A DNA stretch of 43,481 nt from a virus (Duplodnaviria > Heunggongvirae > Uroviricota > Caudoviricetes): IMG/VR virus record IMGVR_UViG_2711768000_000011; one strand, given 5' to 3'. A program made the position numbers and the translations under genes. Below the pieces are notes generated by a model. The model was not told the DNA's origin. It searched no databases and was given only the letters and a program-made list of their open reading frames with translations. Below, in pieces: positions 1 to 43,481 of this stretch; the first letter of the stretch is position 1, and each line of letters opens with the position of its first letter.

Positions 1-1236
1 CTACGATAACCGCGCATTCAACATGGCTACCTGTTCGTCGTTCATGTCATCAATCCACATACCGTAAATTTCATACACCATCTGCGCAGTTTCATGCCCC
101 ATCTGGCTGGCTATAAACGCCGGGTTCGCTCCTGCCGTCAACAGCCAGCAGGCAAAAGTATGCCGCGTATGGTACGGATTACGGCGGCGAATACCAGCAC
201 GTTTTACTGCTGCATTCCATCTCGCACCCAAACTGCTTACCGAGTAATAAGGTTTCTGTTTTCCGTTACACACTCTGGGCATGAAAACAAAATGCAGTTT
301 TTGCTTTTCGGTTCTGCCGTACTCCCGATGATAAAAAGTGATTTCGCTTTTGCGATGATGCCCGGTCAGTTTGTATTGCTCCTTCAGTGCTTCAAGAGCA
401 GGCTGCAGTAGTGTTACCGTCCGGATCCCCGCATTTGTTTTTGGGGGACCGAACATATCCAGTATCGTCAGGTTTCTTCTGACATTCACAACTCCCTTCT
501 CGAAATCCACATCCTCCCACGCCAGAGCAGCCAGTTCCCCGTGACGAAGCCCGGAGTATACGGCAAATTTCCACAAGTTCTGGCTCTGTCCTTTTTCACT
601 TTCCATTAATGCATTGAATTCTGTTTTAGATAACGGGTCAGGCTTTATTCTGTTTCTCTGTAATTTCTTTACTCCTTCAAATGGTTTGGTTGATATAAAT
701 CCCGACTGATACGCAAAACGTAACAACGAACAGAGCAGGGCGATATAGTTATCAACTGTGCGCACGGTTCTTCCTTTTTTGTTGGATCTTGGATTATCCA
801 GGTAAAGCGTTTCTCCATGCAGCAGTTCATTCCGGTAGTTTAAGATATCGCTATAACGAATATGCGATATCGGAGTACTCTCACAAATTATTATCCTGAG
901 TGTTTTTAATTGTGATTTCGTTTTCTTCATTGTGTTTGTTGTTAACTCTGTTTCTTTAATTTTTGTCCAGATATCACAAAGCTCCCCGAACGTTTTTATG
1001 ACCCTCGTTGTCACCATTTTTGCCCCAGTGCTGGACTGGGGAAAACGTCTTAAATACTCAAACTCACCGGAATTGATTTCATGAACTATCAACGCTCTTA
1101 AATTCCCGGCTTTTTTAATGTTACTGTTAGTAACCTCCCAGCCTTTCAATGTTTCCCGACATCGTTTTCCTCGAAACATGAACCAGATGCGAATGTATTT
1201 ACCTCGAATCTCGACACCTGTTGGTAATTTAGACAT
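1..1236 (-). CDS. intR: Tyrosine site-specific integrase, 411 aa (Rac IntR-like)
   Basis: Complete 411-aa ORF with stop at nt 1-3. N-terminus MSKLPTGVEIRGKYIRIW and C-terminal HTRHTFACWLL...YEIYGMW match the tyrosine-recombinase catalytic motif pattern. Recognised from memory as Rac IntR. Confidence 0.9.
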   Translation of the reverse strand: MSKLPTGVEIRGKYIRIWFMFRGKRCRETLKGWEVTNSNIKKAGNLRALIVHEINSGEFEYLRRFPQSSTGAKMVTTRVIKTFGELCDIWTKIKETELTTNTMKKTKSQLKTLRIIICESTPISHIRYSDILNYRNELLHGETLYLDNPRSNKKGRTVRTVDNYIALLCSLLRFAYQSGFISTKPFEGVKKLQRNRIKPDPLSKTEFNALMESEKGQSQNLWKFAVYSGLRHGELAALAWEDVDFEKGVVNVRRNLTILDMFGPPKTNAGIRTVTLLQPALEALKEQYKLTGHHRKSEITFYHREYGRTEKQKLHFVFMPRVCNGKQKPYYSVSSLGARWNAAVKRAGIRRRNPYHTRHTFACWLLTAGANPAFIASQMGHETAQMVYEIYGMWIDDMNDEQVAMLNARLS

Positions 1237-1237
1237 A

Positions 1238-1453
1238 TCATGAGTCTTTGATAAACTGATTTATCTTTGGATAGTTATACCAGATAATCCCTCGCTTACT
1301 GTCTGGCTTCCCTAAAGGAGATACTCGTTTGAAGTGGAAGCCTTCCACCCAACAGTTCTGGCGGTATGCTTCAATTTGTCTGGCCCCCAGACCAGTGCGA
1401 AGCATCAGGCCGTATTCAACCATCCACTCTTCATTAAAGATTACTTGTGCCAT
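1238..1453 (-). CDS. xisR: Excisionase-like protein, 71 aa (YdaQ/XisR-like)
   Basis: Small ORF immediately upstream of int on the same strand. Taken from internal ATG ([15 protein letters not shown]...), giving 71 aa as in Rac YdaQ. Confidence 0.7.
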
Positions 1454-1552: not shown

Positions 1553-1741
1553 TCACGAGGACTGAAGTTTCTCGCAATTAAAATTTATCAGTTTTACTTT
1601 CTGCTCTCTGGAAACGCCTGCTTCTTTTTTACCTGAGAGCATTTTTTCGCATTCTGATTTCGTTAGTTTAGATTTTGAATATCTTGTCCAGTTAGTAGGA
1701 GTGCCACCTTCCTTTTCAATAGTGGCGGTAATTTTATACAT
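1553..1741 (-). CDS. ydaC: Small Rac protein YdaC-like, 62 aa from MYKITATIEK
   Basis: ATG at 1741-1739 is preceded by GGAGGTG. Its start overlaps the end of the ralR reading frame (ATGTATAA). The 86-aa track ORF is an upstream extension without an RBS. Confidence 0.55.
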   Translation of the reverse strand: MYKITATIEKEGGTPTNWTRYSKSKLTKSECEKMLSGKKEAGVSREQKVKLINFNCEKLQSS

Positions 1742-1928
1742 GAACACCTCCATTATTATTTCCAGTGGTTCGTTTATTTCATCGTTCGAGTGCTTCTTTT
1801 TCACTTCCACCATAACCGGTTCGGGATTCGCATCCGTTACACTTCGCTCGGTAATATCCTGAAATGGCTTTCACCGTTACTGATGGACAACCACAAAATG
1901 GACATGGTTTAACATTGTCATATCTCAT
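1734..1928 (-). pseudogene. ralR: ralR-like toxin gene (Cys4 small DNase of the RalR/RalA type I TA pair) interrupted by an in-frame TGA
   Basis: Frame from ATG 1928 reads MRYDNVKPCPFCGCPSVTVKAISGYYRAKCNGCESRTGYGGSEKEALER, then TGA at 1781-1779. Reading through gives NKRTTGNNNGGVHV and TAA at 1736-1734, exactly 64 codons, the recalled RalR length. Not in the ORF track because it is under 60 aa. Confidence 0.5.
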
Positions 1929-1983: not shown

Positions 1984-2793
1984 TTATTCCTCTGAATTAT
2001 CGATTACACTGTATTCCCCGGTTAATACAGAGGAATCTGCAGGATCGATTGTCAGTGGTTCCTTTTCATCCATTGATACTGCACGCTGGATCTCAATTGA
2101 TACGGGCAGATATTTGAACAGGCGACGAATAGCCGTTTTCTTTGCCATTTCTTCCCAGTGAGTTACCCACGGCCCGTTATTACCAGCTTTACTCTGGCTG
2201 CGCACCAGCTCAATCTGTTTGCGCGTCATAACTTCAAACTGAGTACCTCCGTCTTTCAGTCTTGCGACAGCATAGACGTGGGTAACAGGGGCATCTTCGT
2301 TTTCTCCTGGGCGGTGTATTAACTTTTCATCAAGGCCAAATTCGAAATTAAACTCGTCACCTTCACGGACAACACGGGCTGACAGGCTGGCGATTTGACC
2401 TGAACGGCGAGCCAGATCAATCATGCCGCGATAGCCAATGATTAGCTGAACGTTTTTTTTACCGCTCTTTTCGTTTTTATTACCAAAAGGCAGTAAATAT
2501 GCATGACCGAGGGCGCTACCGGGCTCAAGTCCGAGCTGTGAACACTGTACGATTGCACTGACAAAACTCATAGTGTCACAGTTTCCTAACGCCGGAACTT
2601 TACGAATTTCTGTGGTGGCGATACGGATCATACGTTCAGCCGTCATATGGCGTGGAAGAGCTGCTGCCAGTTGCTCTTTCATTGATGGCTGGTTAATAAA
2701 ACTAATCACGTCGTTATTTTTAATTGCTGCTGGTGCACGGTTTCCCTGAGTTTTTTGCAGATCGGCTTTTGCGATTGGTGGTTGCTTAGTCAT
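1984..2793 (-). CDS. recT: RecT single-strand annealing recombinase, 269 aa
   Basis: Sequence from [17 protein letters not shown] recognised as RecT. Start ATG 2793 has an AGGA SD and overlaps the recE stop by 8 nt. The track ORF begins 19 codons upstream. Confidence 0.9.
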
Positions 2794-5386
2794 TTGCATA
2801 TTCCTTAGCCCAGCGGGGCAGTGATAACGTCTTAATAGCTGGCCATTCATCGGTATTGAGGCAGTCAGCCAGGGTTCGCAGATTGCGGTGATATTCCAGC
2901 TGACCTGCCAGTTTTGCTTCTTCGCCCATCATGAAAATTTCAACCGGATAACGTCCGCATTCAATAGTTGTGCTGGCAACCAGAAAAACGAAAGTTGGCT
3001 GCACTCCAAACTGTGCTTCATAACCGTCACTGTAGAATGCATCCTGAACGTGATAGCGGTAGTCGTAATAAGCGGTTTTGAATCGTTGAATATCCGCCGT
3101 AGTTTTCACGTCCATGATCCAGTGAAATTCAGGGATAATTTTGTCCGGACGGCACCGACACAAAATTGCTGTTTCAGGATCTTCCCAGTAAATTGATGAT
3201 TCAGCGTGTCCGGCGCTTTCAACAAGCCATTGCCCCAGCGGCAAAGCCATAACGCTCTGATACATGAGTTCAATTTTCCGGCCTTCTTCGGCAGTGATAA
3301 CCGTTTTTCCTGTGCTTGCGCATTCCCTCAGAAACGCTTTCTCTTCTTCTTTTCCGGAGTTTGTCCGGCGGTTAAATTCAGGTGCTACGATAAAGCGGTT
3401 ACTGAATTCTTCCGGCTCAAGTACCCGGCAGTGGAAAGCGGTTCCTAAATCGAGCGTTTTTGTCTTTGTGGTGTCCACGGGGGCATTTTTACGCCACAAA
3501 TACAGTGCCGGAGTATCAGCAATGTCATCGAGCTGAGACTTACTGACACCGGGACCCGCGTGGTAATTCTCATTCGAAATTCCGTAATAAATACCTGGCT
3601 CTATGTCTTCTACGATTACGGGATCTGCGACTTCGCCAGTTTCATCACTGCAATCGCGATGCGGATCGCTGCCAGCATTCTCATTGTGCGGATGTTCAGC
3701 GCCTTCCATTTCCTCCGGATCATTTTCCTTAGCTTCAACCTGACTCTCTTCATCGAATGTTTCCTGGTATGTTGCGTCGCCCATCACCGCACCACAGTCA
3801 GGGCAGTTATCCCCGCCAGTCTGGCCGCAGGCATTGCAGGCTATTTCCGGTTCCTGTTGCACTACTGGCTCAGGTTGATTCATATCCGGGCTGGTTTTTT
3901 CCGTTTCTGGCTGGTTCTGGTACACACAATCGCGAGTCTGGATCCCCTTTACCCATTTCGGATCGTTCGGGTCGCTAATTCCGTCAACAAATTCACCACG
4001 TGATGCAGCAAGCAATTTATCGGCATCGACAGGATTTTTTGATGGAATGTTTTTCCGGGCTTCATGGAGTTCTGCCCGCAGTTCCTGATATTTCGCATCA
4101 ACAGAATTTACCTGTGACTGAGCATCCAGCGGCTGCGTGTCCTGATGATGTTCAGTTGCGTCCGGTTCCATTGTTTCAGCCTCTCCCTGTTCAACTGCCG
4201 TTGTTCCAGATGGTTGCGGTTTTTCTTCATCATCCTGTTTTCCTTCTTCTGTTACTCGCTGCGGCATCGGGGCAGAGGAGCGACCGCAGGCAATATCCAC
4301 GATTTCCGGATCAGGGTTGGCATGATCGGTTTCAGTCAGTACTTTGTTCAGATATTCAGTGACGTGCGCGGGGATGACCTCGATCCCAATTGGTGCTTCT
4401 TTTACGGACGCAACCACGATGGCGCGGGAATAATCCAGCCCGCCAGGCATGGTGATGAATTTGTCGCGGAAAACAGAAAAGGGCGGTTTATTTTCAGCGA
4501 TAATTTCCTCAATGCGTTTAGCGTGTGCCGGATGAAGGTTATAGATGTCCAGATCCATTGAACGGGCCAGTACGCCAGTGGCTACGTCCCGCGCCAGTGA
4601 CGTCAGATCGTGTACGAAACCTTCGCCGCGATCGGTGAGGTTTCCGCCGCCAGCATTAGCACCGGAAGCCGTGCGAGTGATGTGTGAAACACGATTACCC
4701 TTCATCCACTCTTTTGTCAGCAGTCCTCGATCGGTGTAGTCAGCGTTCAGGTATGCTTCGAAAAAAGCAGTTATCAGTCCCAGGTTTGAATTACCAGGAT
4801 TAGGGAAAACTTTGTCAGTGTCACGAACCAGTTTGTGGAGTTCGCGAATTTCCAGCGGGTCGAGCAGGCTGGTTTTGTGGGAAACAGCCAGGGCAGTAAC
4901 AGCCGGTAGTTCTTCAGCCCGAGCAATGTGTAATGCCTGGAGTCCGTCGCGTGAAACGTGCGTTACCGGTTTTTCGCTGCCGTGTTGAGCAAGCCAACGA
5001 ATGGGCAGTTCCTGGCCAGAAATTGGGAGTAGCATATTCTCCTCAATCTCAGTCATGTCTTCGCCGTTGACGTTGGTATTGCCTTGATAGTGAGCGTTGT
5101 CTGGTGCTGCTCCCGGTTTTAGTTCCCATGTCATGGAGTCTTTGCTGAGTTGATAGCGTTCACTCCAGGTAAAATCGATCTCACCTTCAGCGGGCAGGTC
5201 ATTAACGACAGGAAAATTCGTGGCAACAGCTTTAAAATAGCTGCTCAGTTTTTTACCTGACTTAACGATCAGGTAGTCCAGAGTGGCACAGGTCGATTCA
5301 AAATCGTTGCTTGCCCACAGGACGACGTCAGGTTCACCGGATGATTTTTTCGCTTTCCGTAACAGGAAGAGTGGTTTTGTGCTCAT
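2786..5386 (-). CDS. recE: Exodeoxyribonuclease VIII RecE, 866 aa
   Basis: 866-aa ORF with acidic/proline-rich central region and C-terminal nuclease domain. Length and sequence recognised as Rac RecE; translationally coupled to recT. Confidence 0.9.
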
Positions 5387-5487: not shown

Positions 5488-5763
5488 TCAGATTTCACCT
5501 TTTAATTTCATTGCAATTAGAGTTGCCAGAAATTCGGCTTTTTTTTCTGCGGGCAGATTCTTTCCGATATGCACCAGGCACATTTTTTTGACACCTTCAT
5601 CAAGTGTTTTTACGTTGCCTGATGGACCATCGATATCAACCACAGTGAATGGGGTTTCTTTATTTTCTGTTTTAATTACGTAGCCAATGCGCTTTCCTTC
5701 CAGATTCACCTCGTGAACAATGTCATCGGTAGTTACAACAGTGGCTTCATAATTGGTAATCAT
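5488..5763 (-). CDS. racC: RacC, 91 aa
   Basis: From ATG 5763 (MITNYEATVVTTDDIV...) preceded by AAGGAG. Length matches Rac RacC. The track ORF has a 16-codon upstream extension. Confidence 0.8.
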   Translation of the reverse strand: MITNYEATVVTTDDIVHEVNLEGKRIGYVIKTENKETPFTVVDIDGPSGNVKTLDEGVKKMCLVHIGKNLPAEKKAEFLATLIAMKLKGEI

Positions 5764-5837: not shown

Positions 5838-6008
5838 TTAAAGTTCATGTGCCATCTGGTCTTTTTCGGCACAAGCTTCACTGCAATATTTTCTCGGTTC
5901 GTCTTTTGATAAAATCCCGTGCATGAAGTGAAGCATTCTTTCAATAGCTTTGCTTTCTTCAACGTCTTTTTTGCAAAGGTGGTAAGCACATTTTATTTTC
6001 TTAGTCAT
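5838..6008 (-). CDS. ydaE: YdaE-like zinc-binding small protein, 56 aa
   Basis: Hand translation: [59 protein letters not shown] overlaps the kilR stop (TGATG). Missing from the ORF track because it is under 60 aa. Confidence 0.75.
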   Translation of the reverse strand: MTKKIKCAYHLCKKDVEESKAIERMLHFMHGILSKDEPRKYCSEACAEKDQMAHEL

Positions 6009-6229
6009 CACCATGACTCCGCCTTTACAGGTAAACCATCACGACCGAGGAAGACTTTAATCATGCGGTCAGTAATGCATGTTTTTGTGGTCAGGTTACG
6101 AATATATAGTTTTCGCTTTTTAATATTGTTTGCCGAGGCAATATATGTCCGGCCTTCATGAAGAACATAATCGCCAGGAGTCACACACTGACGTGGTATT
6201 TCATCAGTTCCGAAGTGATGTGCAATCAT
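6008..6229 (-). CDS. kilR: KilR cell-division (FtsZ) inhibitor, 73 aa
   Basis: From second ATG ([15 protein letters not shown]...) with GGAG 7 nt upstream. 73 aa matches Rac KilR. Confidence 0.8.
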
Positions 6230-6410
6230 AATTATCTCCATTTTTACAAATGAACTTTGTTGATGCGGTGCCTGGTGCCTCCAGGTGACTGCAACCAGTT
6301 AACAATTACAGTCGGCTTTCCCACCCAAACCAATAAGGACTAACATGACTTTTAACTGTGCCACGTGCGCTTAGCCGCATTCACCGCATCACAAAATTCA
6401 CTTTAAAAAG

Positions 6411-6452
6411 GGCGGACATCAGCCGAACTTCAAGAAAAAAACTGATGCCGCC
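6411..6452 (-). terminator. Stem-loop (GGCGGCATCAG...CTGATGTCCGCC) followed by CTTTTT on the minus strand, upstream of kilR
   Basis: 11-12 bp imperfect inverted repeat with a large loop; the T-run is on the minus strand only. Candidate leftward terminator or attenuator. Confidence 0.35.
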
Positions 6453-6670
6453 AGGACTACACACAGCAATGTCGTTATTTACAACCGGAGGCGCACTCCC
6501 ACCATTTAAATTTAACAGACAAGACCGACTCTTTATGGATATCGGAAATGCGCCTTCGTGTTGTGCCCGGTTTTATTTCACCACCTCCGGGCTTCGGTGG
6601 TCTCGGCTATACCCCTACAGCGAGAGCTTGTGTTAACATTTCAATACCCTTACAGTTGAGAGTTATTGAT

Positions 6671-7159
6671 ATGTTGGATGTATTTACTCCATTGTTGAAA
6701 CTTTTTGCTAACGAGCCACTCGAAATACTTATGTATACGATTATCATTTTTGGTCTCACTCTCTGGCTGATACCGAAAGAGTTTACTGTCGCATTCAATG
6801 CTTATACTGAAATACCTTGGCTCTTTCAGATTATCGTTTTTGCCTTTTCTTTCGTGGTCGCCATTTCCTTCTCAAGATTGCGAGCACATATTCAAAAGCA
6901 TTATTCATTACTACCAGAGCAACGAGTATTGCTTCGTTTATCTGAGAAAGAAATCGCTGTATTTAAAGATTTCCTTAAAACAGGAAATCTTATTATCACT
7001 TCTCCTTGCCGTAACCCGGTTATGAAAAAATTAGAACGGAAGGGCATCATTCAACATCAGAGTGATAGCGCAAACTGTTCTTATTATCTCGTCACCGAAA
7101 AATACTCCCATTTTATGAAGTTATTCTGGAACAGCAGGAGTAGACGTTTTAATCGTTAG
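6671..7159 (+). CDS. sieB: Superinfection exclusion protein SieB, 162 aa
   Basis: From ATG 6671 (MLDVFTPLLKLFANEPLE...), with two hydrophobic segments. 162 aa as recalled for SieB. The track ORF carries a 41-codon 5' extension. Confidence 0.8.
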   Translation: MLDVFTPLLKLFANEPLEILMYTIIIFGLTLWLIPKEFTVAFNAYTEIPWLFQIIVFAFSFVVAISFSRLRAHIQKHYSLLPEQRVLLRLSEKEIAVFKDFLKTGNLIITSPCRNPVMKKLERKGIIQHQSDSANCSYYLVTEKYSHFMKLFWNSRSRRFNR

Positions 7160-7311
7160 CTTACTGTGTGCTTCTCCAACCATCGGCGCGCACCAGTTTC
7201 GGTTTTAAATGTTTTGCTTTTGGTATACGTCATGGCAGTGAACGTTCCATCCTGGTTGGGGAACACGCCGCACACCAGGGATTCGTTGTTGCCGAGGTCG
7301 ATTTTTTGCAT
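7156..7311 (-). CDS. ydaF: YdaF-like small protein, 51 aa
   Basis: Hand translation MQKIDLGNNESLVCGVFPNQDGTFTAMTYTKSKTFKTETGARRWLEKHTVS. Stop overlaps the sieB stop (convergent). Under 60 aa, so not in the track. Confidence 0.65.
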   Translation of the reverse strand: MQKIDLGNNESLVCGVFPNQDGTFTAMTYTKSKTFKTETGARRWLEKHTVS

Positions 7312-7321
7312 TTTGCGAATC

Positions 7322-7456
7322 TCACATCTTGTTGCTGTGTATAGCGACTTCTGCCTGCCAGAGATCCCAGTCGTTGCTGCGTAAAGCCTGCACAGCCTGG
7401 TTGTAAGTGATACCGCAACAATCCATCAAATACTGAACTACTTCGTAATGCACCAT
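7322..7456 (-). CDS. ydaG: YdaG-like small protein, 44 aa
   Basis: From ATG 7456 (MVHYEVVQYLMDCCGITYNQ...) preceded by a strong SD GGGGAGAG. Confidence 0.65.
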   Translation of the reverse strand: MVHYEVVQYLMDCCGITYNQAVQALRSNDWDLWQAEVAIHSNKM

Positions 7457-7630: not shown

Positions 7631-7671
7631 ATGTACTTTGTGTTCATTGATGTAAAGTACTATAAGTACAT
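7631..7671. promoter_or_regulatory. Operator-like repeat cluster (ATGTACT-N3-AGTW/TGTT), candidate OL/PL region
   Basis: ATGTACT at 7631-7637. Palindromic AGTACTATAAGTACAT at 7656-7671 contains the same heptamer on the minus strand. Same motif as the repeats in the repressor/cro intergenic region. Confidence 0.45.
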
Positions 7672-37600: not shown

Positions 37601-37921
37601 TCGAACGGTATTTATGATTCCCCGCAATTTTTTGCTTTTGCAAAAGGGGCTGGTGTTTTTGGTGAGGCTGGACCGGAAGCCATTATGCCATTAACACGAA
37701 CTTCCGATGGTTCTCTTGGTGTCAGAGCTATTAATAGTAAAAGTGGTAATGGAGGCGGAGATATTACCTATGCCCCTGTATACCAAATCACTATTCAAAA
37801 TGACGGCCAGAATGGAGAGATTGGCCCTCAGGCAATAAAAGCACTTATGGGGATGGTTGATCAGCGGGTGCAGGGCAATCTGTTAAATATGCGACGTGAT
37901 GGGGGAATGTTAAGTGGCTAA
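34688..37921 (+). CDS. Tail tape measure protein, 1077 aa
   Basis: Very long, coiled-coil-rich ORF with Gly-rich C-terminal segments, located between GT and the M-L-K-I-J block. AGGAG SD. Confidence 0.9.
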
Positions 37922-38252
37922 TACGGAAGAATTTCACTGGTTACCAGAGGATGGAATGAAAACAGAAAATAAACCATCGATAAAAACTGTAAGATTTGGT
38001 GATGGTTATGAGCAACGAAGTCCAAATGGACTTAATCATTCTCTGCGCGTTTTCACCTGTGATTTCAAAGTTGAGGCGAATGAACGTGATTCATTTGAAA
38101 AATTTTTAGCCCGGCATGAAGGCTATAAATCTTTTTTTTGGCGCCCGCCGGGTATTAACAGAAAAATCAGAGTGGTGTGTCGAACGTGGTCAGCGACAGA
38201 ACATATCACCTATACCGATTTTTCGTGTCAGTTTGACGAAGTGGTGATCTGA
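37914..38252 (+). CDS. M: Minor tail protein M (lambda gpM-like), 112 aa
   Basis: Size, position and overlap with the tape measure stop and the L start. Confidence 0.8.
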
Positions 38253-38950
38253 TGCAGGACATACAACAGGAAACGCTGAATGAATGCATTCGTGCGGAGC
38301 AGTCGGCCAGCGTGGTGCTCTGGGAAATCGACCTGACCGAGGTAGGCGGGGATCGCTACTTTTTCTGCAATGAGCAGAACGAGAAAGGAGAGTCTGTCAC
38401 CTGGCAGAGTCGGCAGTATCAGGCCTATCCCATTCAGGGGAGTGGATTTGAGATGAACGGCAAAGGTGCCAGTGCAAGGCCAACGCTGAAAGTCTCTAAT
38501 CTGCACGGCATGGTCACCGGGATGGCGGAAGACCTGCAGAGTCTGGTCGGCGGAACGGTGGTCAGGCGTAAGGTTTACGCCCGTTTTCTGGATGCGGTGA
38601 ACTTCGTCAACGGAAACAGTGACGCCGATCCGGAGCAGGAGGTGATCAGCCGCTGGCGTATTGAGCAGTGCAGCGAACTGAGCGCGGTCAGTGCCTCCTT
38701 TGTACTGTCCACGCCGACGGAAACGGACGGCGCTGTTTTTCCGGGGCGCATCATGCTTGCTAATACCTGCACCTGGACCTATCGCGGTGATGAGTGCGGT
38801 TATCACGGTCCGGCTGTCGCGGATGAATATGACCAGCCAACGTCCGATATCACGAAGGATAAATGCAGCAAATGCCTGAGCGGTTGTAAGTTCCGCAATA
38901 ACGTCGGCAACTTTGGCGGCTTCCTTTCCATTAACAAACTTTCGCAGTAA
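38252..38950 (+). CDS. L: Minor tail protein L (lambda gpL-like), 232 aa
   Basis: 232 aa with C-terminal Cys cluster (CTWTYRGDECGYHG...CSKCLSGC) recognised as lambda L. Confidence 0.85.
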   Translation: MQDIQQETLNECIRAEQSASVVLWEIDLTEVGGDRYFFCNEQNEKGESVTWQSRQYQAYPIQGSGFEMNGKGASARPTLKVSNLHGMVTGMAEDLQSLVGGTVVRRKVYARFLDAVNFVNGNSDADPEQEVISRWRIEQCSELSAVSASFVLSTPTETDGAVFPGRIMLANTCTWTYRGDECGYHGPAVADEYDQPTSDITKDKCSKCLSGCKFRNNVGNFGGFLSINKLSQ

Positions 38951-38955: not shown

Positions 38956-39693
38956 ATGACACAGACAGAATCAGCGATTCTGGCGCACGCCCGGCGATGT
39001 GCGCCAGCGGAGTCGTGCGGCTTCGTGGTGAGAACACCGGAGGGGGAAAGATATTTTCCCTGCGTGAATATTTCCGGTGAGCCGGAGGAGTATTTCCGNN
39101 NNNNNNNNNNNNNNNNNNNNNNNNNNNNNNNNNNNNNNNNNNNNNNNNNNNNNNNNNNNNNNNNNNNNNNNNNNNNNNNNNNNNNNNNNNNNNNNNNNNN
39201 NNNNNNNNNNNNNNNNNNNNNNNNNNNNNNNNNNNNNNNNNNNNNNNNNNNNNNNNNNNNNNNNNNNNNNNNNNNNNNNNNNNNNNNNNNNNNNNNNNNN
39301 NNNNNNNNNNNNNNNNNNNNNNNNNNNNNNNNNNNNNNNCTGGCGGGAATTGAGATGCCAGATTTTCATCGTGAGGACGACTGGTGGCGTAATGGTCAGA
39401 ATCTCTATCTGGATAATCTGGAGGCTACAGGGCTGTATCAGGTGCCGTTGTCAACGGCGCAGCCGGGCGATGTGCTGCTGTGCTGTTTTGGTTCATCGGT
39501 GCCGAATCATGCCGCCATTTACTGTGGTGACGGCGAGCTGCTGCACCATATTCCTGAACAACTGAGTAAACGAGAGAGGTACACCGACAAATGGCAGCGA
39601 CGCACACACTCCCTCTGGCGTCACCGGGCATGGCACGCATCTGCCTTTACGGGGATTTGCAGCGATTTGGCCGCCGCATCGACCTTCGTGTGA
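38956..39693 (+). CDS. K: Tail assembly protein K (lambda gpK-like), interrupted by assembly gap
   Basis: N-terminus MTQTESAILAHARRCAPAESCGF and C-terminal part recognised. The middle is replaced by N 39099-39339. Confidence 0.75.
   Translation: MTQTESAILAHARRCAPAESCGFVVRTPEGERYFPCVNISGEPEEYFXXXXXXXXXXXXXXXXXXXXXXXXXXXXXXXXXXXXXXXXXXXXXXXXXXXXXXXXXXXXXXXXXXXXXXXXXXXXXXXXXLAGIEMPDFHREDDWWRNGQNLYLDNLEATGLYQVPLSTAQPGDVLLCCFGSSVPNHAAIYCGDGELLHHIPEQLSKRERYTDKWQRRTHSLWRHRAWHASAFTGICSDLAAASTFV
39099..39339. other. Assembly gap (241 N)
   Basis: Run of N characters. Confidence 1.
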
Positions 39694-40238: not shown

Positions 40239-43200
40239 TGCAAANNNNNNNNNNNNNNNNNNNNNNNNNNNNNNNNNNNNNNNNNNNNNNNNNNNNNNNN
40301 NNNNNNNNNNNNNNNNNNNNNNNNNNNNNNNNNNNNNNNNNNNNNNNNNNNNNNNNNNNNNNNNNNNNNNNNNNNNNNNNNNNNNNNNNNNNNNNNNNNN
40401 NNNNNNNNNNNNNNNNNNNNNNNNNNNNNNNNNNNNNNNNNNNNNNNNNNNNNNNNNNNNNNNNNNNNNNNNNNNNNNNNNNNNNNNNNNNNNNNNNNNN
40501 NNNNNNNNNNNNNNNNNNNNNNNNNNNNNNNNNNNNNNNNNNNNNNNNNNNNNNNNNNNNNNNNNNNNNNNNNNNNNNNNNNNNNNNNNNNNNNNNNNNN
40601 NNNNNNNNNNNNNNNNNNNNNNNNNNNNNNNNNNNNNNNNNNNNNNNNNNNNNNNNNNNNNNNNNNNNNNNNNNNNNNNNNNNNNNNNNNNNNNNNNNNN
40701 NNNNNNNNNNNNNNNNNNNNNNNNNNNNNNNNNNNNNNNNNNNNNNNNNNNNNNNNNNNNNNNNNNNNGGAAAAAGACATCACCATTAAGGGCAAAACCA
40801 CCTCGCAGTATCTGGTCTCGGTGGTGGTGGATAACCTGCCTCCGCGCCCGTTCAGTATCCGGATGCGCAGGATGACACCGGACAGCACCACAGACCAGCT
40901 GCAGAACAAAACGCTCTGGTCGTCATACACCGAAATCATCGATGTGAAACAGTGCTACCCGAACACTGCACTGGTCGGCGTACAGGTGGACTCGGAGCAG
41001 TTCGGCAGCCAGCAGGTGAGTCGTAATTATCATCTTCGCGGGCGCATTCTGCAGGTGCCGTCGAACTATAACCCGCAGACGCGACAATACAGCGGTATCT
41101 GGGACGGAACGTTAAAACCAGCATACAGCAACAACATGGCCTGGTGTCTGTGGGATATGCTGACCCACCCGCGCTACGGCATGGGGAAACGTCTTGGTGC
41201 GGCGGATGTGGACAAATGGGCGCTGTATGTCATCGGCCAGTACTGCGACCAGTCAGTGCCGGACGGCTTTGGCGGCACGGAGCCGCGCATCACCTGTAAT
41301 GCGTACCTGACCACACAGCGCAAGGCGTGGGATGTGCTCAGTGATTTCTGCTCGGCGATGCGCTGTATGCCGGTATGGAACGGGCAGACGCTGACGTTCG
41401 TGCAGGACCGACCGTCGGATAAGGTGTGGACCTATAACCGCAGTAATGTGGTGATGCCGGATGATGGCGCGCCGTTCCGCTACAGCTTCAGCGCCCTGAA
41501 AGACCGCCATAATGCCGTTGAGGTGAACTGGATTGACCCGGATAACGGCTGGGAGACGGCGACAGAGCTTGTGGAGGATACGCAGGCCATTGCCCGTTAC
41601 GGTCGTAACGTCACGAAGATGGATGCTTTTGGCTGTACCAGCCGGGGGCAGGCACACCGCGCCGGGCTGTGGCTGATTAAAACAGAACTGCTGGAAACGC
41701 AGACCGTGGACTTCAGCGTGGGCGCAGAAGGGCTTCGCCATGTGCCGGGCGATGTCATTGAAATCTGTGATGATGACTATGCGGGTATCAGCATCGGCGG
41801 GCGCGTGCTGGCGGTAAACAGCCAGACCCGGACGCTGACGCTCGACCGTGAAATCACGCTGCCATCCTCCGGTACCATGCTGATAAGCCTGGTTGACGGA
41901 AGTGGCAATCCGGTCAGCGTGGAGGTTCAGTCCGTCACCGACGGCGTGAAGGTGAAAGTGAGCCGTGTTCCTGACGGCGTTGCTGAATACAGCGTGTGGG
42001 GGCTGAAGCTGCCGACGTTGCGCCAGCGCCTGTTCCGCTGTGTGAGTATCCGTGAGAACGATGACGGCACGTATGCCATCACTGCCGTGCAGCATGTACC
42101 GGAAAAAGAAGCCATCGTGGATAACGGGGCGCACTTTGACGGCGACCAGAGCGGCACGGTGAATGGTGTCACGCCGCCAGCGGTGCAGCACCTGACTGCC
42201 GAAGTCACCGCAGACAGCGGGGAATATCAGGTGCTGGCGCGCTGGGACACGCCGAAGGTGGTGAAGGGGGTGAGCTTTATGCTTCGCCTGACCGTGGCAG
42301 CGGATGACGGCAGTGAGCGGCTGGTCAGCACGGCCCGGACGACGGAAACCACATACCGCTTCACGCAACTGGCGCTGGGACGGTACACGCTGACAGTCCG
42401 GGCGGTAAATGCCTGGGGACAGCAGGGCGATCCGGCGTCGGTATCGTTCAGGATTGCCGCACCGGTAGCACCGTCGCGGATTGAGCTGACGCCGGGCTAT
42501 TTTCAGATAACTGCCACGCCGCATCTTGCGGTTTATGATCCGACGGTACAGTTTGAGTTCTGGTTCTCGGAAACGCGGATTACCGATATCAGGCAGGTTG
42601 AAACCACAGCCCGCTACCTTGGCGCGGGGCTGTACTGGATAGCCGCCAGTATCAATATCAAACCGGGCCATGATTATTACTTTTATATCCGCAGTGTGAA
42701 CACCGTTGGCAAATCGGCATTCGTGGAGGCCGTCGGTCGGGCGAGCGATGATGCGGAAGGTTACCTGGATTTTTTCAAAGGCAAGATAACCGAATCCCAT
42801 CTCGGTAAAGAGCTGCTGGAAAAAGTTGATCTGACGGAGGATAACGCCAGCAGACTGGATGAGTTTTCGAAAGAGTGGAAGGACGCTAACGATAAATGGA
42901 ATGCGATGTGGGGCGTCAAAATTGAGCAGACCAAAGACGGCAAACATTATGTCGCGGGTATTGGCCTCAGCATGGAGGACACGGAGGAAGGCAAGCTGAG
43001 CCAGTTTCTGGTTGCCGCCAATCGTATCGCGTTTATTGACCCGGCAAACGGGAATGAAACGCCGATGTTTGTGGCGCAGGGCAACCAGATATTCATGAAC
43101 GACGTGTTCCTGAAGCGCCTGACAGCCCCCGCCATTACCAGCGGTGGCAGTCCTCCGGTATTTTCCCTGACATCAGACGGAAAGCTGACCGCTAAAAATG

Positions 43201-43481
43201 CGGATATCAGTGGTAGTGTGAATGCGAACTCAGGAACGCTCAACAATGTCACGATTAACCAGAACTGTACGATTAAGGGCATGCTGGAGGCGACCCAGGT
43301 CAGAGGGGATTTCGTTAAAGCTGTATCAAAAGCCTTCCCGAAAAAAGTCGGTACGTGGGGTAACACGGAAACACCAGACGGTACGGTTACAGTCACCATC
43401 AGCGATGATCATAACTTTGACCGCCAGATTATTATTCCGCCCATTATTTTTAACGGTATAGCGTATGACGATCCGGGGAGC
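40238..43481 (+). CDS. J: Tail tip / host specificity protein J (lambda gpJ-like), partial, contains gap and runs off window
   Basis: ATG 40238 overlaps the I stop (ATGA). After the gap, an open frame from 40770 to the window end translates to ...[14 protein letters not shown]...[23 protein letters not shown]..., recognised as lambda J. Absent from the ORF track because there is no stop in the window. Confidence 0.9.
40245..40768. other. Assembly gap (524 N)
   Basis: Run of N characters. Confidence 1.

What the first reader, a model, noticed from the sequence alone, without database searches (positions are those of the whole stretch)
1..43481. Near-intact Rac-family prophage, including several sub-60-aa genes missed by the ORF track
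Seen: gene order matches the Rac element (intR ... kilR, sieB, ydaFG, repressor, ydaT, ydaU/V, trkG) but with complete lysis, head and lambda-like tail modules. ydaE (56 aa), ydaF (51 aa), ydaG (44 aa), ralR and a 58-aa ORF at 30987-31163 had to be hand-translated. Inference: this element may be inducible and could serve as the ancestral-state reference for the defective K-12 Rac.
Basis: partly seen in the sequence, partly recalled or inferred. Interest (0 to 1): 0.4.

Follow-up and report, generated by a model that had tools for sequence, protein, structure and literature searches.

The report
Full-length Rac-type prophage, already known
The window holds about 83% of a full-length relative of the K-12 "Rac" prophage, with every visible gene intact, but near-identical copies are already annotated in many E. 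coli genomes and active Rac-like phages have been described, so the finding is correct but ordinary.

Summary
The window runs from the stop codon of intR to about 255 nt before the end of tail gene J. It carries the Rac gene order plus complete replication, nin/Q, lysis, packaging, head and tail-shaft/tip genes. It is 99.9-100% identical (J: 95.8%) to a prophage at ttcA in E. coli NCTC10444.

All 53 RefSeq features checked there (51 CDS and two pseudogene calls that look like annotation artefacts) map onto the window. Fifty are uninterrupted; ydaV, K and J are cut by N runs. The hand-translated small genes (ydaE, ydaF, ydaG, ralR, 58-aa ORF) are real and already annotated in RefSeq.

K-12 Rac aligns to the window in five blocks. 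It can be derived by three deletions of about 9.1, 11.6 and 8.4 kb. These explain ydaW, rzpR, ynaK, ydaY, ynaA and lomR as truncated remnants.

The window is not a clean ancestor:
- Its immunity genes are unrelated to racR/ydaS.
- ralR and rcbA carry premature stop codons that K-12 lacks.
- att sites, lom and tail-fibre genes lie outside it.
- Full-length Rac elements with K-12-type immunity exist elsewhere.

Inducibility cannot be judged from sequence. The more interesting by-catch is a conserved ParB-like plus glycosyltransferase pair (K-12 ynaK is its stump), two candidate defence genes and two TolA-domain lipoproteins.

The parts
1..1236 (-). intR tyrosine integrase, 411 aa; the window starts at its stop codon
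   Evidence: 98.8% aa identity to K-12 IntR; identical to NCTC10444 WP_000040839.1
1238..1453 (-). xisR excisionase, 71 aa
   Evidence: 100% identical to K-12 XisR
1553..1741 (-). rcbA-like DUF1187 protein, 62 aa; premature stop (AGA->TGA, codon 63) relative to the 69-aa K-12 RcbA
1557..1735 (+). RalA antitoxin sRNA
   Evidence: Rfam RF02694, 225 bits, full length
1779..1928 (-). ralR toxin, 49-aa form; TGG->TGA at codon 50 relative to the 64-aa K-12 RalR
1984..2793 (-). recT recombinase, 269 aa
   Evidence: 98.5% identity to K-12
2786..5386 (-). recE exonuclease VIII, 866 aa, full length
   Evidence: 99.2% identity to K-12
5488..5763 (-). racC, 91 aa
   Evidence: 100% identity to K-12
5838..6008 (-). 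ydaE, 56 aa
   Evidence: 100% identity to K-12
6008..6229 (-). kilR FtsZ inhibitor, 73 aa
   Evidence: 98.6% identity to K-12
6410..6465 (-). DicF-like sRNA upstream of kilR; its position matches the K-12 ncRNA kilS
   Evidence: Rfam RF00039, 39.1 bits, below the gathering score of 48, E 2.2e-6, full model; K-12 kilS annotation
6671..7159 (+). sieB superinfection exclusion protein, 162 aa
   Evidence: 99.4% identity to K-12
7156..7311 (-). ydaF, 51 aa
   Evidence: 100% identity to K-12
7322..7456 (-). ydaG, 44 aa
   Evidence: 97.7% identity to K-12
7631..7671 (.). Two putative operator half-palindromes (ATGTACTnnnAGTWCAT), 24 bp apart, left of the repressor gene (OL-like)
   Evidence: 5 of the 6 window-wide matches lie in the two intergenic regions flanking the repressor gene; function inferred
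7747..8166 (-). Repressor candidate, 139 aa, HTH_3 only; unrelated to RacR
   Evidence: Pfam; local similarity to RacR limited to 32 aa at 37.5%
8191..8231 (.). Two putative operators, 24 bp apart, between the repressor and Cro-like genes (OR-like)
   Evidence: function inferred
8246..8500 (+). Cro-like HTH protein, 84 aa; unrelated to YdaS
8497..8919 (+). ydaT, 140 aa
   Evidence: 99.3% identity to K-12; PF06254
8932..9789 (+). ydaU (DUF1376), replication initiator candidate, 285 aa
   Evidence: 99.6% identity to K-12
9796..10226 (+). ydaV DnaC/IstB-like ATPase, visible N-terminal 143 aa; the rest is hidden by N run 1
   Evidence: PF01695
10227..10278 (.). N run 1 (52 N); stands for 314 bp (ydaV 3' end) in NCTC10444 and K-12
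10303..11064 (+). DUF1627 protein, 253 aa; full-length form of K-12 ydaW
   Evidence: K-12 YdaW matches residues 1-151 only
11080..11496 (+). DUF977 protein, 138 aa
   Evidence: PF06163, 2.8e-31
11695..12657 (+). Cargo: HEPN/RES-NTD1 plus RiboL-PSP-type HEPN protein, 320 aa, with an invariant Rx4H motif (R258, H263)
   Evidence: predicted structure is all-alpha with no PDB match
12673..13674 (+). Cargo: 333-aa protein with a C-terminal GNAT fold
   Evidence: Pfam hit weak; AF2 model pLDDT 90; Foldseek matches to GNAT/HAT1 with E 1e-4 and low TM-scores
14295..14633 (-). Cargo: DUF1971 protein, 112 aa, on the opposite strand
   Evidence: PF09313, 2.6e-26
15447..16046 (+). DUF1367 (nin-region) protein, 199 aa
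   Evidence: PF07105, 6e-98
16046..16336 (+). YbcO-family putative nuclease, 96 aa
   Evidence: PF07102, 5e-45
16333..16875 (+). Q-like late antiterminator candidate (DUF1133), 180 aa
   Evidence: PF06576, 2.5e-107, full length; PF06530, 8.6e-6
17623..17809 (+). STnc100 sRNA family match downstream of Q
   Evidence: Rfam RF02076, 86.6 bits
17920..18348 (+). Cargo: lipoprotein with a TolA C-terminal domain, 142 aa (lipobox IIGC)
   Evidence: PF06519, 2.4e-23; sequence; PGAP calls it a tolA fragment
18520..18894 (+). Cargo: second lipoprotein with a TolA C-terminal domain, 124 aa (lipobox VAGC)
   Evidence: PF06519, 1.3e-14
19146..19361 (+). Holin essD, 71 aa
19361..19858 (+). Endolysin rrrD, 165 aa
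19855..20319 (+). Rz spanin, 154 aa; K-12 rzpR is its 3' remnant
20075..20260 (+). Rz1/rzoR embedded lipoprotein, 61 aa
   Evidence: 100% identity to K-12 RzoR
20457..21914 (+). trkG potassium transporter (moron), 485 aa
   Evidence: 99.6% identity to K-12
22052..22840 (+). ParB_N/Srx-domain protein, 262 aa, full length; K-12 ynaK is its first 86 aa
   Evidence: phrog_620, 1.7e-90, full profile; PF02195; annotated as intact in NZ_CP182371.1
22833..23765 (+). TET-associated-type glycosyltransferase (TAGT/GREB1-related), 310 aa; overlaps the ParB-like gene
   Evidence: PF20691, 4e-34; phrog_842, 7.5e-104
23743..23952 (+). 69-aa protein matching part of a small-terminase PHROG
   Evidence: phrog_309, 1e-17
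23956..25050 (+). Terminase small subunit, 364 aa
   Evidence: phrog_51, 7e-75; PF03592
25031..26332 (+). Terminase large subunit, 433 aa
   Evidence: phrog_2 and phrog_10250
26335..27741 (+). Portal protein (DUF4055), 468 aa
   Evidence: phrog_145, 3.5e-165
27725..28837 (+). Mu F-like head morphogenesis protein, 370 aa
   Evidence: phrog_241; PF04233
28942..29706 (+). Scaffold candidate (DUF6651), 254 aa
   Evidence: phrog_784 and phrog_206
29805..30944 (+). Major capsid protein (P22-coat family by RefSeq name), 379 aa
   Evidence: phrog_283, 1.6e-136
30987..31163 (+). 58-aa conserved phage ORF of unknown function
   Evidence: phrog_1514, 3.5e-43; RefSeq WP_000908084.1
31167..31562 (+). Head-tail adaptor Ad1, 131 aa
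   Evidence: phrog_493
31562..31945 (+). Head closure protein Hc1, 127 aa
   Evidence: phrog_161
31946..32326 (+). Tail completion / neck protein, 126 aa
   Evidence: phrog_169
32323..32715 (+). Tail terminator, 130 aa
   Evidence: phrog_179
32742..33704 (+). Tail tube protein, 320 aa
   Evidence: PF18906; phrog_290
33762..34214 (+). Tail assembly chaperone G, about 150 aa; K-12 ydaY is its C-terminal 116 aa
   Evidence: phrog_313, 4.7e-46
34202..34522 (+). T extension reached by a -1 frameshift at slippery A_AAA_AAG (34202-34208), giving a G-T fusion
   Evidence: heptamer in the correct phase two codons before the G stop, with an open -1 frame; phrog_1189, 1.4e-36; the frameshift itself is inferred
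34688..37921 (+). Tape measure protein, 1077 aa; K-12 ynaA is its first 311 aa
37914..38252 (+). Tail tip protein M, 112 aa
   Evidence: phrog_14
38252..38950 (+). Tail tip protein L, 232 aa
   Evidence: phrog_18, 4e-150
38956..39693 (+). Tail tip protein K (C40 peptidase), interrupted by N run 2
39099..39339 (.). N run 2 (241 N); 247 bp in NCTC10444
39690..40238 (+). Tail assembly protein I, 182 aa
   Evidence: phrog_32, 3e-72
40245..40768 (.). N run 3 (524 N); 500 bp in NCTC10444; hides the I-J junction and the first ~446 nt of J
40770..43481 (+). Tail tip / host-range protein J, visible 904 codons, open to the window end; about 255 nt of J lie beyond
   Evidence: no stop codon in 904 codons; 95.8% identity to NCTC10444 J, best 98.5% elsewhere

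Best explanation
The window holds most of a full-length lambdoid temperate siphovirus prophage of the Rac family, about 43.7 kb of roughly 52 kb. In the nearest complete genomes this prophage is integrated in the 5' end of ttcA.

The parts are as follows. Functions are inferred from homology unless stated.
- IntR and XisR carry out integration and excision.
- A 139-aa HTH repressor and an 84-aa Cro-like protein are divergently transcribed. Paired 17-bp operators, two on each side and 24 bp apart, flank the repressor gene and set an immunity specificity different from K-12 RacR/YdaS.
- The leftward early operon carries ydaG, ydaF, a DicF-like sRNA, kilR, ydaE, racC, recE, recT and ralR/RalA.
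- The rightward operon carries ydaT, the replication pair ydaU and ydaV, full-length ydaW (DUF1627) and DUF977. A variable cargo slot follows, then nin-type genes and a Q-like antiterminator.
- The late operon carries a second cargo slot (STnc100 RNA and two TolA-domain lipoproteins), holin, endolysin and Rz/Rz1, the trkG moron, a ParB-like plus glycosyltransferase pair, and terminase.
- It continues with portal, Mu F-like protein, scaffold, capsid, connectors, tail tube, the G/G-T chaperones (with a programmed -1 frameshift), tape measure and the lambda-type tip proteins M, L, K, I and J.

K-12 Rac is a decayed sibling of this design. It lost three blocks:
- window 10753-19874;
- window 22306-33862;
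- window 35623 into lom.
It also gained an IS5.

The element is a mosaic relative, not the literal ancestor of K-12 Rac. Whether it still forms virions is not shown.
For: Shown here:
- Identity to the NCTC10444 prophage at ttcA is 99.9-100% over 40.7 kb.
- 50 of the 53 RefSeq features checked (51 CDS plus two pseudogene calls judged artefacts) map to uninterrupted ORFs of the same length.
- K-12 aligns collinearly in five blocks, with 2-nt overlaps of the aligned segments at the junctions.
- K-12 YdaW, YnaK, YdaY and YnaA each align only to a terminal part of the full-length window protein.
- The full-length ParB-like, Q-like, DUF1367, portal and other proteins match the whole length of their family profiles.
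- A slippery A_AAA_AAG lies in phase with an open -1 frame.
- Operator-like repeats are confined to the two intergenic regions next to the repressor gene.
- Rz1 is embedded in Rz.

Prevalence: 59 of 5426 complete genomes hold at least 80% of the left half. 679 hold at least 80% of the right half.

From the literature:
- K-12 Int/Xis-mediated excision works (PMC4632033).
- A 46.8-kb Rac-like prophage at ttcA (KingRac) is weakly mitomycin-inducible, forms tailed particles and lysogenises K-12 (PMC6731689).
Against: - attL, attR, lom, the side tail fibre and its assembly gene are outside the window.
- The ydaV 3' end, the middle of K and the J start are hidden by N runs. The first run's length (52 N against 314 bp) would mean a frame-breaking deletion in the helicase-loader gene if taken literally.
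- ralR and rcbA carry nonsense mutations. This shows that some decay has occurred in accessory genes.
- The repressor has no recognisable self-cleavage domain, so SOS induction is not predicted by the lambda mechanism.
- J differs from every complete-genome copy by at least 1.5%. In a short-read scaffold this could reflect collapsed repeats.
- No functional data exist for this element. The GenBank 'phage' records that resemble it are computational prophage predictions (bioRxiv 10.1101/2022.06.29.498070).
Confidence: 0.88

Rival explanations
1. It is a cryptic prophage that only looks intact. One or more lesions make it unable to produce virions. Candidates are lesions hidden in the N runs, regulatory defects, or missing downstream genes.
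For: - Three essential genes (ydaV, K, J) are partly unreadable.
- N run 1 is 262 nt shorter than the sequence it replaces in relatives.
- Two accessory genes already carry premature stops.
- The tail fibre region and att sites are not in the window.
- The related phage KingRac is only weakly induced.
Against: - All 50 uninterrupted features are full length, and 48 encode the same protein as in NCTC10444.
- The hidden segments are intact in NCTC10444 and K-12.
- The hidden segments are sequences that occur several times per genome. The N runs therefore look like scaffold gaps at repeats rather than deletions.
Confidence: 0.35
2. The window is an assembly chimera. The N runs join contigs from different lambdoid prophages of one genome, so the apparent single element is an artefact.
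For: - The gaps fall exactly in segments shared among lambdoid prophages.
- The J segment after the last gap is only 95.8% identical to NCTC10444, while everything before it is 99.9% or more.
- J is present at a median of 3 and up to 14 places per genome.
Against: - The same order across all three gap positions is found uninterrupted in closed genomes (NCTC10444, NCTC9082, JP538 and many others).
- The best J match (98.5%) is in the same Rac-site prophage of NCTC9082.
- Mosaic J alleles are normal among lambdoid phages (established knowledge).
Confidence: 0.05
3. The window is the literal ancestral state of K-12 Rac, differing only by the K-12 deletions.
For: - Five collinear blocks at 98.7-99.9% identity, with three clean deletion junctions.
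- The truncated K-12 genes are explained by these junctions.
Against: - The immunity region is unrelated.
- The ydaW block is only 93.9% identical.
- ralR and rcbA are truncated here but intact in K-12.
- Cargo slots differ among otherwise near-identical relatives.
- NZ_CP182371.1 carries a full-length Rac with racR/ydaS at 99.3% and 64-aa RalR.
Confidence: 0.05

Closest known systems
Cryptic prophage Rac of E. coli K-12 MG1655 (NC_000913.3 1411899-1434958)
   Same: - Same integrase and excisionase.
- Same early-left operon from xisR to ydaG, at 98.7% nucleotide identity.
- Same ydaT, ydaU and ydaV (99.4%), Rz1, trkG, RalA sRNA and DicF-like sRNA position.
- Same chromosomal site in the nearest complete genomes.
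   Different: - K-12 lacks window 10753-19874, 22306-33862 and 35623 onward into lom.
- K-12 has IS5 in lomR.
- K-12 has racR/ydaS instead of the 139-aa/84-aa HTH pair.
- K-12 has full-length RalR (64 aa) and RcbA (69 aa).
- K-12 has pinR/ynaE at the right end, where NCTC10444 has sitABCD.
Prophage at ttcA in E. coli NCTC10444 (NZ_LR134092.1 about 2711418-2763910) and about 58 other complete genomes
   Same: - 99.9-100% identical over window 1-40244.
- Same gene order, same cargo genes and same immunity region.
   Different: - J is 95.8% identical.
- Two proteins differ by one or two residues.
- The window lacks the last ~8.7 kb (J 3' end, lom, tail fibre, tfaR, sitABCD, attR).
KingRac, an active Rac-like phage of a mouse-gut E. 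coli (PMC6731689; PMC12251178)
   Same: - Integrated at ttcA.
- Replaces K-12 Rac on lysogenisation.
- Shares the 189-bp rcbA form and ydaT, ydaU and dnaC-like genes of the same lengths.
- Full structural gene set.
   Different: - Its recombination region differs (recE 1974 bp plus other ORFs).
- Total length is 46,834 bp.
- KingRac has experimental proof of induction and virions; the window element has none.
Rac-like prophages CP-933R / Sp10 of E. coli O157:H7
   Same: Integrated in ttcA, with the leftmost 8 kb reported as 99% identical to K-12 Rac (PMC4632033). They have long been cited as the complete counterpart of Rac (PMC6379469).
   Different: Not compared directly here. The racR-like genes of O157 strains are about 88% identical to K-12, whereas the window has an unrelated repressor.
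GenBank 'phage' records vB_EcoS-666R9 / 673R7 / 613R10 (ON470614 etc.) and Salmonella phage SPF_0923 (ON032529)
   Same: Same backbone and immunity genes. 97.7% identity over 71% of the left half and 98.5-99% over 79-95% of the structural half.
   Different: - Different genes in both cargo slots and a different holin/endolysin.
- The vB_EcoS records are in-silico prophage predictions, not isolated virions.
Phage lambda and lambdoid phage mEp460
   Same: - Overall lambdoid layout.
- G/G-T frameshift chaperones.
- Tail tip genes M, L, K, I and J. The L-to-J region is 94-96% identical in nucleotides to mEp460.
   Different: - Head and packaging genes are not lambda-type. They comprise a P22-coat-family capsid, DUF4055 portal, Mu F-like protein and a 364-aa TerS.
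- The tube protein belongs to the Phage_tube_2 family.
- Replication uses YdaU/YdaV, not O/P.

Membership tests
Rac prophage family (lambdoid prophages at ttcA) | IntR/XisR site-specific recombination module of Rac | tested here: met
   IntR is 98.8% and XisR 100% identical to K-12.
Rac prophage family (lambdoid prophages at ttcA) | Integration in the 5' end of ttcA, with attL/attR present | not testable with these tools
   The window starts at the intR stop and ends inside J, so no flank or att site is present. The nearest complete genomes have ttcA 52 nt beyond intR, which supports this only by proxy.
Rac prophage family (lambdoid prophages at ttcA) | Early-left operon synteny: rcbA-ralR-recT-recE-racC-ydaE-kilR, sieB, ydaF, ydaG | tested here: met
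   One collinear block, window 1-7622, at 98.7% identity. All proteins are 97.7-100% identical.
Rac prophage family (lambdoid prophages at ttcA) | ydaT-ydaU-ydaV replication region and the trkG moron after the lysis genes | tested here: met
   99.4% and 99.3% nucleotide identity. The ydaV 3' end is hidden by N.
Rac prophage family (lambdoid prophages at ttcA) | RacR/YdaS immunity (K-12 immunity type) | tested here: not met
   No nucleotide alignment across window 7623-8490. The proteins share only a short HTH-level similarity. The element is a heteroimmune family member, not a K-12-type one.
Functional temperate lambdoid siphovirus | Uninterrupted genes for replication, late control, lysis, packaging, head, connector, tail shaft and tail tip | tested here: inconclusive
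   All visible genes are intact and match full-length family profiles. However, ydaV, K and J are partly masked, and lom, stf and tfa lie outside the window.
Functional temperate lambdoid siphovirus | Programmed -1 frameshift producing the G-T tail chaperone | tested here: met
   A_AAA_AAG at 34202 is in the zero-frame phase two codons before the G stop. The -1 ORF runs to 34522 and matches phrog_1189. The sequence signature is met; the frameshifting itself was not assayed.
Functional temperate lambdoid siphovirus | Induction, excision and virion production | not testable with these tools
   Needs experiments. Only relatives (KingRac) have such data.
Lambda-type structural modules | Lambda-type tail tip (M, L, K, I, J) | tested here: met
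   PHROG families 14, 18, 32 and 31. 94-96% nucleotide identity to mEp460 from L to J.
Lambda-type structural modules | Lambda-type head and packaging genes | tested here: not met
   The head module consists of a P22-coat-family capsid, DUF4055 portal, Mu F-like protein and DUF6651 scaffold. No nucleotide match to lambda-type head genes appeared among the phage hits.
TET-associated glycosyltransferase (TAGT, PF20691) DNA-hypermodification systems | TAGT-family glycosyltransferase | tested here: met
   PF20691, 118.8 bits against a cutoff of 27.5.
TET-associated glycosyltransferase (TAGT, PF20691) DNA-hypermodification systems | A partner enzyme that makes the hydroxymethyl-pyrimidine acceptor (TET/5mYOX plus cytosine methyltransferase, or a thymidylate-synthase-like hydroxymethylase) | tested here: not met
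   None of the roughly 55 genes in the window has such a name or Pfam match. The only constant partner is a ParB_N-domain protein. The pair should therefore not be filed as a known hmC/hmU glycosylation pathway.

The most novel reading that the evidence does not exclude
The overlapping gene pair at 22052-23765 may be a self-contained, uncharacterised modification module of tailed viruses. It consists of a ParB_N/Srx-domain protein with a conserved C-terminal domain, followed by a TAGT/GREB1-type glycosyltransferase.

Evidence for a module:
- The two genes are adjacent and overlapping in 80 of 80 IMG/VR loci examined.
- The pair is also found in Lactobacillus phage phi jlb1 and the haloarchaeal virus HHTV-2. 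Both proteins are about 40-44% identical across these hosts.
- It typically sits just upstream of the terminase genes.
- It occurs here without any TET, methyltransferase or hydroxymethylase partner.

The reading is that it glycosylates phage DNA, or another late-stage target, by a route not yet described. This would give a function to the lineage of the K-12 orphan gene ynaK. The evidence here shows only conservation and linkage. No activity is shown.
Probability: 0.25. Interest if true: 0.55.

Novelty: already known. Interest (0 to 1): 0.12.

Why it matters
The finding itself adds little. The same prophage is annotated in dozens of closed E. coli genomes. Intact Rac relatives have been cited since 2001, and an active one was shown in 2019.

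Its practical value is as a worked map. Three deletions with defined junctions turn a full-length element into K-12 Rac. This explains what the K-12 genes really are:
- ydaW is the N-terminal 151 aa of a DUF1627 protein.
- rzpR is the 3' part of Rz.
- ynaK is the first 86 aa of a ParB-like protein.
- ydaY is the C-terminal 116 aa of tail chaperone G.
- ynaA is the first 311 aa of the tape measure.
- lomR is a 3' remnant.

The map also warns against using this element as 'the' ancestor.

The cargo genes may be worth more than the prophage:
- A ParB-like/glycosyltransferase pair conserved from enterobacterial to haloarchaeal viruses.
- Two single-gene defence candidates (a HEPN protein and a GNAT-fold protein).
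- Two TolA-domain lipoproteins that could act as decoys for Tol-dependent colicins or filamentous phages.

Tried and rejected
1. HEPN (11695-12657) and the GNAT-like gene (12673-13674) as a two-gene toxin-antitoxin or defence pair. Rejected: homologues of each occur alone in other contexts. These include an Aeromonas prophage end and defence islands next to Abi_2, BrxC/TerB and Mrr genes.
2. PADLOC scan of ten cargo proteins. It gave no meaningful defence-system hit. The only strong hit was the ParB_N domain matching the N-terminus of a ParB-methyltransferase model.
3. Foldseek of the HEPN model against PDB gave nothing below E = 0.2. The HEPN call therefore rests on Pfam hits in homologues and the invariant Rx4H motif.
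4. PDB sequence search for the glycosyltransferase found no relative. For the ParB-like protein, only the N-terminal domain matched ParB/Noc/sulfiredoxin.
5. ynaK and tolA 'pseudogenes' in the NCTC10444 annotation as real lesions. Rejected:
- The 262-aa ORF matches a full PHROG profile and is annotated as intact in another genome.
- The 142-aa ORF is a complete lipoprotein with a TolA domain.
6. The 564-aa antisense ORF inside J (41253-42947, minus strand). Judged a by-product of J's codon bias: its first codon position is J's GC-rich third position.
7. tRNA genes: none found.
8. Rfam at relaxed threshold on 13600-15500 found nothing.
9. Direct sequence comparison with KingRac was not possible. 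Only reads are deposited, and no supplement text is held for the 2019 paper. Gene lengths from the 2025 paper's S6 table were used instead.
10. The paper that defined TAGT (Iyer et al. 2013) is not held. Literature searches found no study of the ParB-like+TAGT pair or of prophage TolA-domain lipoproteins.

Full report
**What the window is.** The 43,481-base window contains three N runs: 10227-10278, 39099-39339 and 40245-40768. It has no tRNA genes. Megablast against 5,426 complete E. coli genomes found the left 21 kb at 100% identity and the right 22.5 kb at 99.4% identity. Both lie contiguously on the chromosome of strain NCTC10444.

The RefSeq annotation there shows a prophage bounded by ttcA on the integrase side. 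This is the attachment locus of the K-12 cryptic prophage Rac. The window begins exactly at the intR stop codon. It ends about 255 nt before the stop of tail gene J. From the K-12 att coordinates projected onto NCTC10444, the whole element there is about 52.5 kb. The window therefore covers about 83% of it. It lacks attL, the J 3' end, lom, the 3-kb tail fibre gene, tfaR, a sitABCD operon and attR.

**Checking the observation.** I mapped 53 RefSeq features of the NCTC10444 prophage onto the window: 51 CDS and two pseudogene calls.
- Fifty map as uninterrupted ORFs of identical length. Forty-eight of these encode identical proteins and two differ by one or two residues.
- ydaV, K and J are cut by the N runs.
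- All of them are annotated in RefSeq. 'Missed by the ORF track' reflects only a length threshold.

- The RalA antitoxin sRNA, 1557-1735 (Rfam 225 bits).
- A DicF-like sRNA at 6410-6465 on the minus strand. It scores below Rfam's gathering score but covers the full model at E 2e-6, and it sits at the position of K-12 kilS.
- Rz1 embedded in Rz, 20075-20260.
- The T extension of the tail chaperone (see below).

**Comparison with K-12 Rac.** blastn gives five collinear blocks:

| K-12 locus L004 | Window | Identity |
|---|---|---|
| 1001-8619 | 1-7622 | 98.7% |
| 9679-11414 | 8491-10226 | 99.4% |
| 11729-12202 | 10279-10752 | 93.9% |
| 12201-14631 | 19875-22305 | 99.3% |
| 14630-16389 | 33863-35622 | 99.9% |

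Against NCTC10444, the next K-12 block resumes inside lom.

K-12 Rac therefore equals this design minus three blocks: 9.1 kb (window 10753-19874), 11.6 kb (22306-33862) and about 8.4 kb (from 35623 into lom). It also has an IS5 in lomR.

Protein alignments show the direction of change:
- K-12 YdaW matches only residues 1-151 of a 253-aa DUF1627 protein.
- YnaK matches residues 1-86 of a 262-aa ParB-like protein.
- YdaY matches residues 35-150 of tail chaperone G.
- YnaA matches residues 1-311 of a 1077-aa tape measure.
- rzpR is the 3' part of Rz.

The long forms match whole family profiles. The K-12 forms are therefore the derived ones.

**Why it is not a clean ancestor.**
- Window 7623-8490 does not align to K-12. 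The 139-aa repressor candidate and the 84-aa Cro-like protein share only HTH-level similarity with RacR and YdaS.
- ralR has TGG->TGA at codon 50 and rcbA has AGA->TGA at codon 63. The downstream K-12 codons are still present in the DNA. These are therefore nonsense mutations in the window's lineage, and K-12 is the more intact copy for these two genes.
- Near-identical relatives carry different genes in two slots, between DUF977 and DUF1367 and between Q and the holin.
- K-12-type racR/ydaS occurs in 1,089 genomes. Strain Br_112_kylling (NZ_CP182371.1) has racR/ydaS at 99.3% in a full-length Rac at ttcA. That element has 64-aa RalR, full-length DUF1627, lysis genes, trkG, the ParB-like/glycosyltransferase pair, terminase, portal and head genes. 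It is a closer proxy for the K-12 ancestor, although it lacks sieB and ydaG.

**The N runs.** In NCTC10444 the hidden stretches are 314, 247 and 500 bp, against 52, 241 and 524 N. They cover the ydaV 3' end, the middle of K, and the I-J junction with the first ~446 nt of J.
- The ydaV segment occurs up to four times per genome.
- J occurs at a median of three and up to 14 places per genome.

The runs therefore most likely mark scaffold gaps at repeats shared among lambdoid prophages, with unreliable length estimates. This is inference. Taken literally, the first run would imply a frame-breaking 262-nt deletion in the helicase-loader gene.

The visible 904 codons of J are open. They differ by at least 1.5% from every complete-genome copy.

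**How it most likely works.** Functions are inferred from homology.

*Immunity.* Operator-like 17-mers (ATGTACTnnnAGTWCAT) occur as pairs 24 bp apart at 7631-7671 and 8191-8231. These are the two intergenic regions flanking the repressor gene, and five of the six window-wide matches lie there. The repressor shows only an HTH domain. Lambda-style RecA-stimulated self-cleavage is therefore not predicted.

*Late control and lysis.* YdaU (DUF1376) and the DnaC/IstB-like YdaV form the replication pair. A DUF1133 protein with a weak Phage_antitermQ match is the likely late antiterminator. Holin, endolysin and Rz/Rz1 are complete.

*Head and tail.*
- Packaging and head genes: a 364-aa TerS, TerL, a DUF4055 portal, a Mu F-like protein, a scaffold and a capsid that RefSeq names P22-coat-family. 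These are not lambda-type.
- Connector genes, terminator and a Phage_tube_2 tube protein follow.
- Chaperone G (33762-34214) ends two codons after a slippery A_AAA_AAG at 34202, in the correct phase. The -1 frame stays open to 34522 and matches phrog_1189. This is the classical G/G-T arrangement.
- The tip genes M, L, K, I and J are lambda-type. The L-to-J region is 94-96% identical in nucleotides to phage mEp460.

**What is already known.**
- Liu et al. describe rac-like prophages in ttcA in many strains. [quoted passage not shown]
- A review notes that K-12 Rac is incomplete while the EDL933 copy is intact. It also reports that a Rac-locus prophage is present in 69% of 638 strains (PMC6379469).
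- Frazao et al. showed that KingRac, a 46,834-bp Rac-like prophage at ttcA, replaces K-12 Rac in the mouse gut. It is weakly mitomycin-inducible and forms tailed particles (PMC6731689).
- KingRac's gene table shares the rcbA, ydaT, ydaU and dnaC-like gene lengths with the window. Its recE region differs (PMC12251178 S6 table).
- GenBank 'phage' records with the same backbone exist (ON470614 and others). They come from computational prophage prediction.

The finding is therefore correct but not new.

**By-catch 1: the ParB-like/glycosyltransferase pair.** The 262-aa ParB_N-domain protein (22052-22840) overlaps a 310-aa glycosyltransferase of the TET-associated family (PF20691, 119 bits).
- tblastn found homologues of the glycosyltransferase at 40-47% identity in phages of Lactobacillus, Nocardia and Vibrio and in the haloarchaeal virus HHTV-2. 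Porphyromonas phages match at 27.5%.
- In HHTV-2 and phi jlb1 a ParB-like gene overlaps it by 11 nt. The pair lies immediately upstream of the terminase genes in phi jlb1 and about 3 kb upstream of the large-terminase gene in HHTV-2.
- Both proteins align over their full lengths at 40-44% identity, including the C-terminal domain of the ParB-like protein.
- In 80 of 80 IMG/VR loci the ParB-like ORF is directly upstream and overlapping.
- The glycosyltransferase family has at least 8,000 clusters. UniRef names them 'GREB1-related' or 'TAGT'.
- No TET, methyltransferase or hydroxymethylase gene is in the window, so the known hmC/hmU glycosylation pathways do not apply.
- A preprint notes ParB-like genes near phage DNA glycosyltransferases but does not characterise this pair (10.1101/2023.12.21.572611).

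**By-catch 2: a HEPN protein.** The 320-aa protein at 11695-12657 has homologues carrying PF18870 and PF18735 (RiboL-PSP-type HEPN). R258 and H263 are invariant in an Rx4H motif. The model is all-alpha with no PDB match.

**By-catch 3: a GNAT-fold protein.** The 333-aa protein at 12673-13674 models confidently (pLDDT 90). It has a C-terminal GNAT fold, supported by a near-cutoff Pfam hit and weak Foldseek matches, and an N-terminal part with no match. Its homologues sit alone in defence islands. It is not an obligate partner of the HEPN gene.

**By-catch 4: TolA-domain lipoproteins.** Two lipoproteins with a TolA C-terminal domain lie between Q and the holin (17920-18348 and 18520-18894). They could act as decoys for Tol-dependent colicins or filamentous phage. 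This is speculation, and no literature was found.

**Verdict.**
- The novelty class is 'already known'.
- Interest is low for the prophage as such. The ParB-like/glycosyltransferase module is the one item that could repay an experiment.

Noticed in passing
window 22052-23765 (+): An overlapping gene pair: a 262-aa ParB_N/Srx-domain protein plus a 310-aa TET-associated-type glycosyltransferase (PF20691). The pair is conserved at about 40-44% identity in Lactobacillus phage phi jlb1 and the haloarchaeal virus HHTV-2. It is adjacent in 80 of 80 IMG/VR loci, upstream of the terminase genes. No TET, methyltransferase or hydroxymethylase partner is present here. K-12 ynaK is the first 86 aa of the ParB-like gene. 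The function is uncharacterised.
   Followed up: partly
window 11695-12657 (+): A 320-aa cargo protein of the HEPN/RES-NTD1 plus RiboL-PSP HEPN type, with an invariant Rx4H motif (R258, H263). It is absent from PADLOC. Homologues are solitary genes in prophages and mobile elements of Enterobacterales and Aeromonas. It is a candidate abortive-infection RNase.
   Followed up: partly
window 12673-13674 (+): A 333-aa cargo protein. The AlphaFold model is confident (pLDDT 90), with a C-terminal GNAT acetyltransferase fold (weakly supported) and an N-terminal region without a structural match. Homologues sit alone in defence islands next to Abi_2, BrxC/TerB-helicase and Mrr genes.
   Followed up: partly
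window 17920-18348 and 18520-18894 (+): Two paralogous small lipoproteins (lipoboxes IIGC and VAGC), each carrying a TolA C-terminal domain. They lie between the Q-like gene and the holin. RefSeq calls the first a tolA pseudogene fragment, but it is a complete ORF. They may be periplasmic decoys for Tol-dependent colicins or Ff phage. No literature was found.
   Followed up: partly
window 33762-34522 (+): The tail assembly chaperone G has a canonical -1 slippery site, A_AAA_AAG, at 34202, and an open T frame running to 34522. RefSeq and K-12 annotate only 'ydaY', which is the C-terminal 116 aa of G. The T frame is unannotated.
   Followed up: yes
window 1779-1928 and 1553-1741 (-): ralR (TGG->TGA, codon 50) and rcbA (AGA->TGA, codon 63) carry premature stops relative to K-12. 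The downstream K-12 codons are still present in the DNA. The RalA antitoxin sRNA is intact. The toxin may be attenuated in this lineage.
   Followed up: yes
window 6222-6465 (-): A DicF-like sRNA (39 bits, full model, below the Rfam gathering score) lies at the position of K-12 kilS. It is followed by a weak second STnc100-like match (35.5 bits) that runs up to and overlaps the first 8 nt of kilR. This resembles the dicF-dicB arrangement of prophage Qin.
   Followed up: partly
window 17623-17809 (+): An STnc100 sRNA family match (86.6 bits) lies in the 1-kb non-coding stretch after the Q-like gene. A promoter-like site at 17246-17275 and a terminator-like hairpin at 17303-17322 lie upstream. 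These are consensus matches only.
   Followed up: no
window 7631-7671 and 8191-8231: Four copies of a 17-bp partial palindrome, ATGTACTnnnAGTWCAT, occur in two pairs with 24-bp spacing. They flank the repressor gene and are candidate OL/OR operators of this immunity type.
   Followed up: partly
window 14295-14633 (-): A DUF1971 protein is encoded on the opposite strand inside a 1.8-kb, otherwise non-coding part of the first cargo slot. The same gene occurs in other Rac relatives next to different cargo, for example QueH in NZ_CP182371.1.
   Followed up: no
window 41253-42947 (-): A 564-aa antisense ORF, followed by a 150-aa one, lies inside J. Its first codon position coincides with J's GC-rich third position. 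It was judged non-coding.
   Followed up: partly
window 24094-24167 (+): An imperfect 36-nt tandem repeat (2.1 copies, AAAAnTGCGCA-like units) lies near the 5' end of the small-terminase gene. It might be a packaging-site element.
   Followed up: no
L001 3778-7227 (NZ_LR134092.1 2711777-2715226), outside the window: In NCTC10444 the sitABCD iron/manganese transporter operon lies between tfaR and attR of this prophage. K-12 Rac has pinR, ynaE and ynaM in that position. It is a right-end moron that the window does not reach.
   Followed up: no
window 10227-10278, 39099-39339, 40245-40768: The N-run lengths (52, 241, 524) do not equal the sequence they replace in relatives (314, 247, 500 bp). All three fall in segments that are multi-copy among lambdoid prophages. 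They look like scaffold gaps rather than length-preserving masks.
   Followed up: partly
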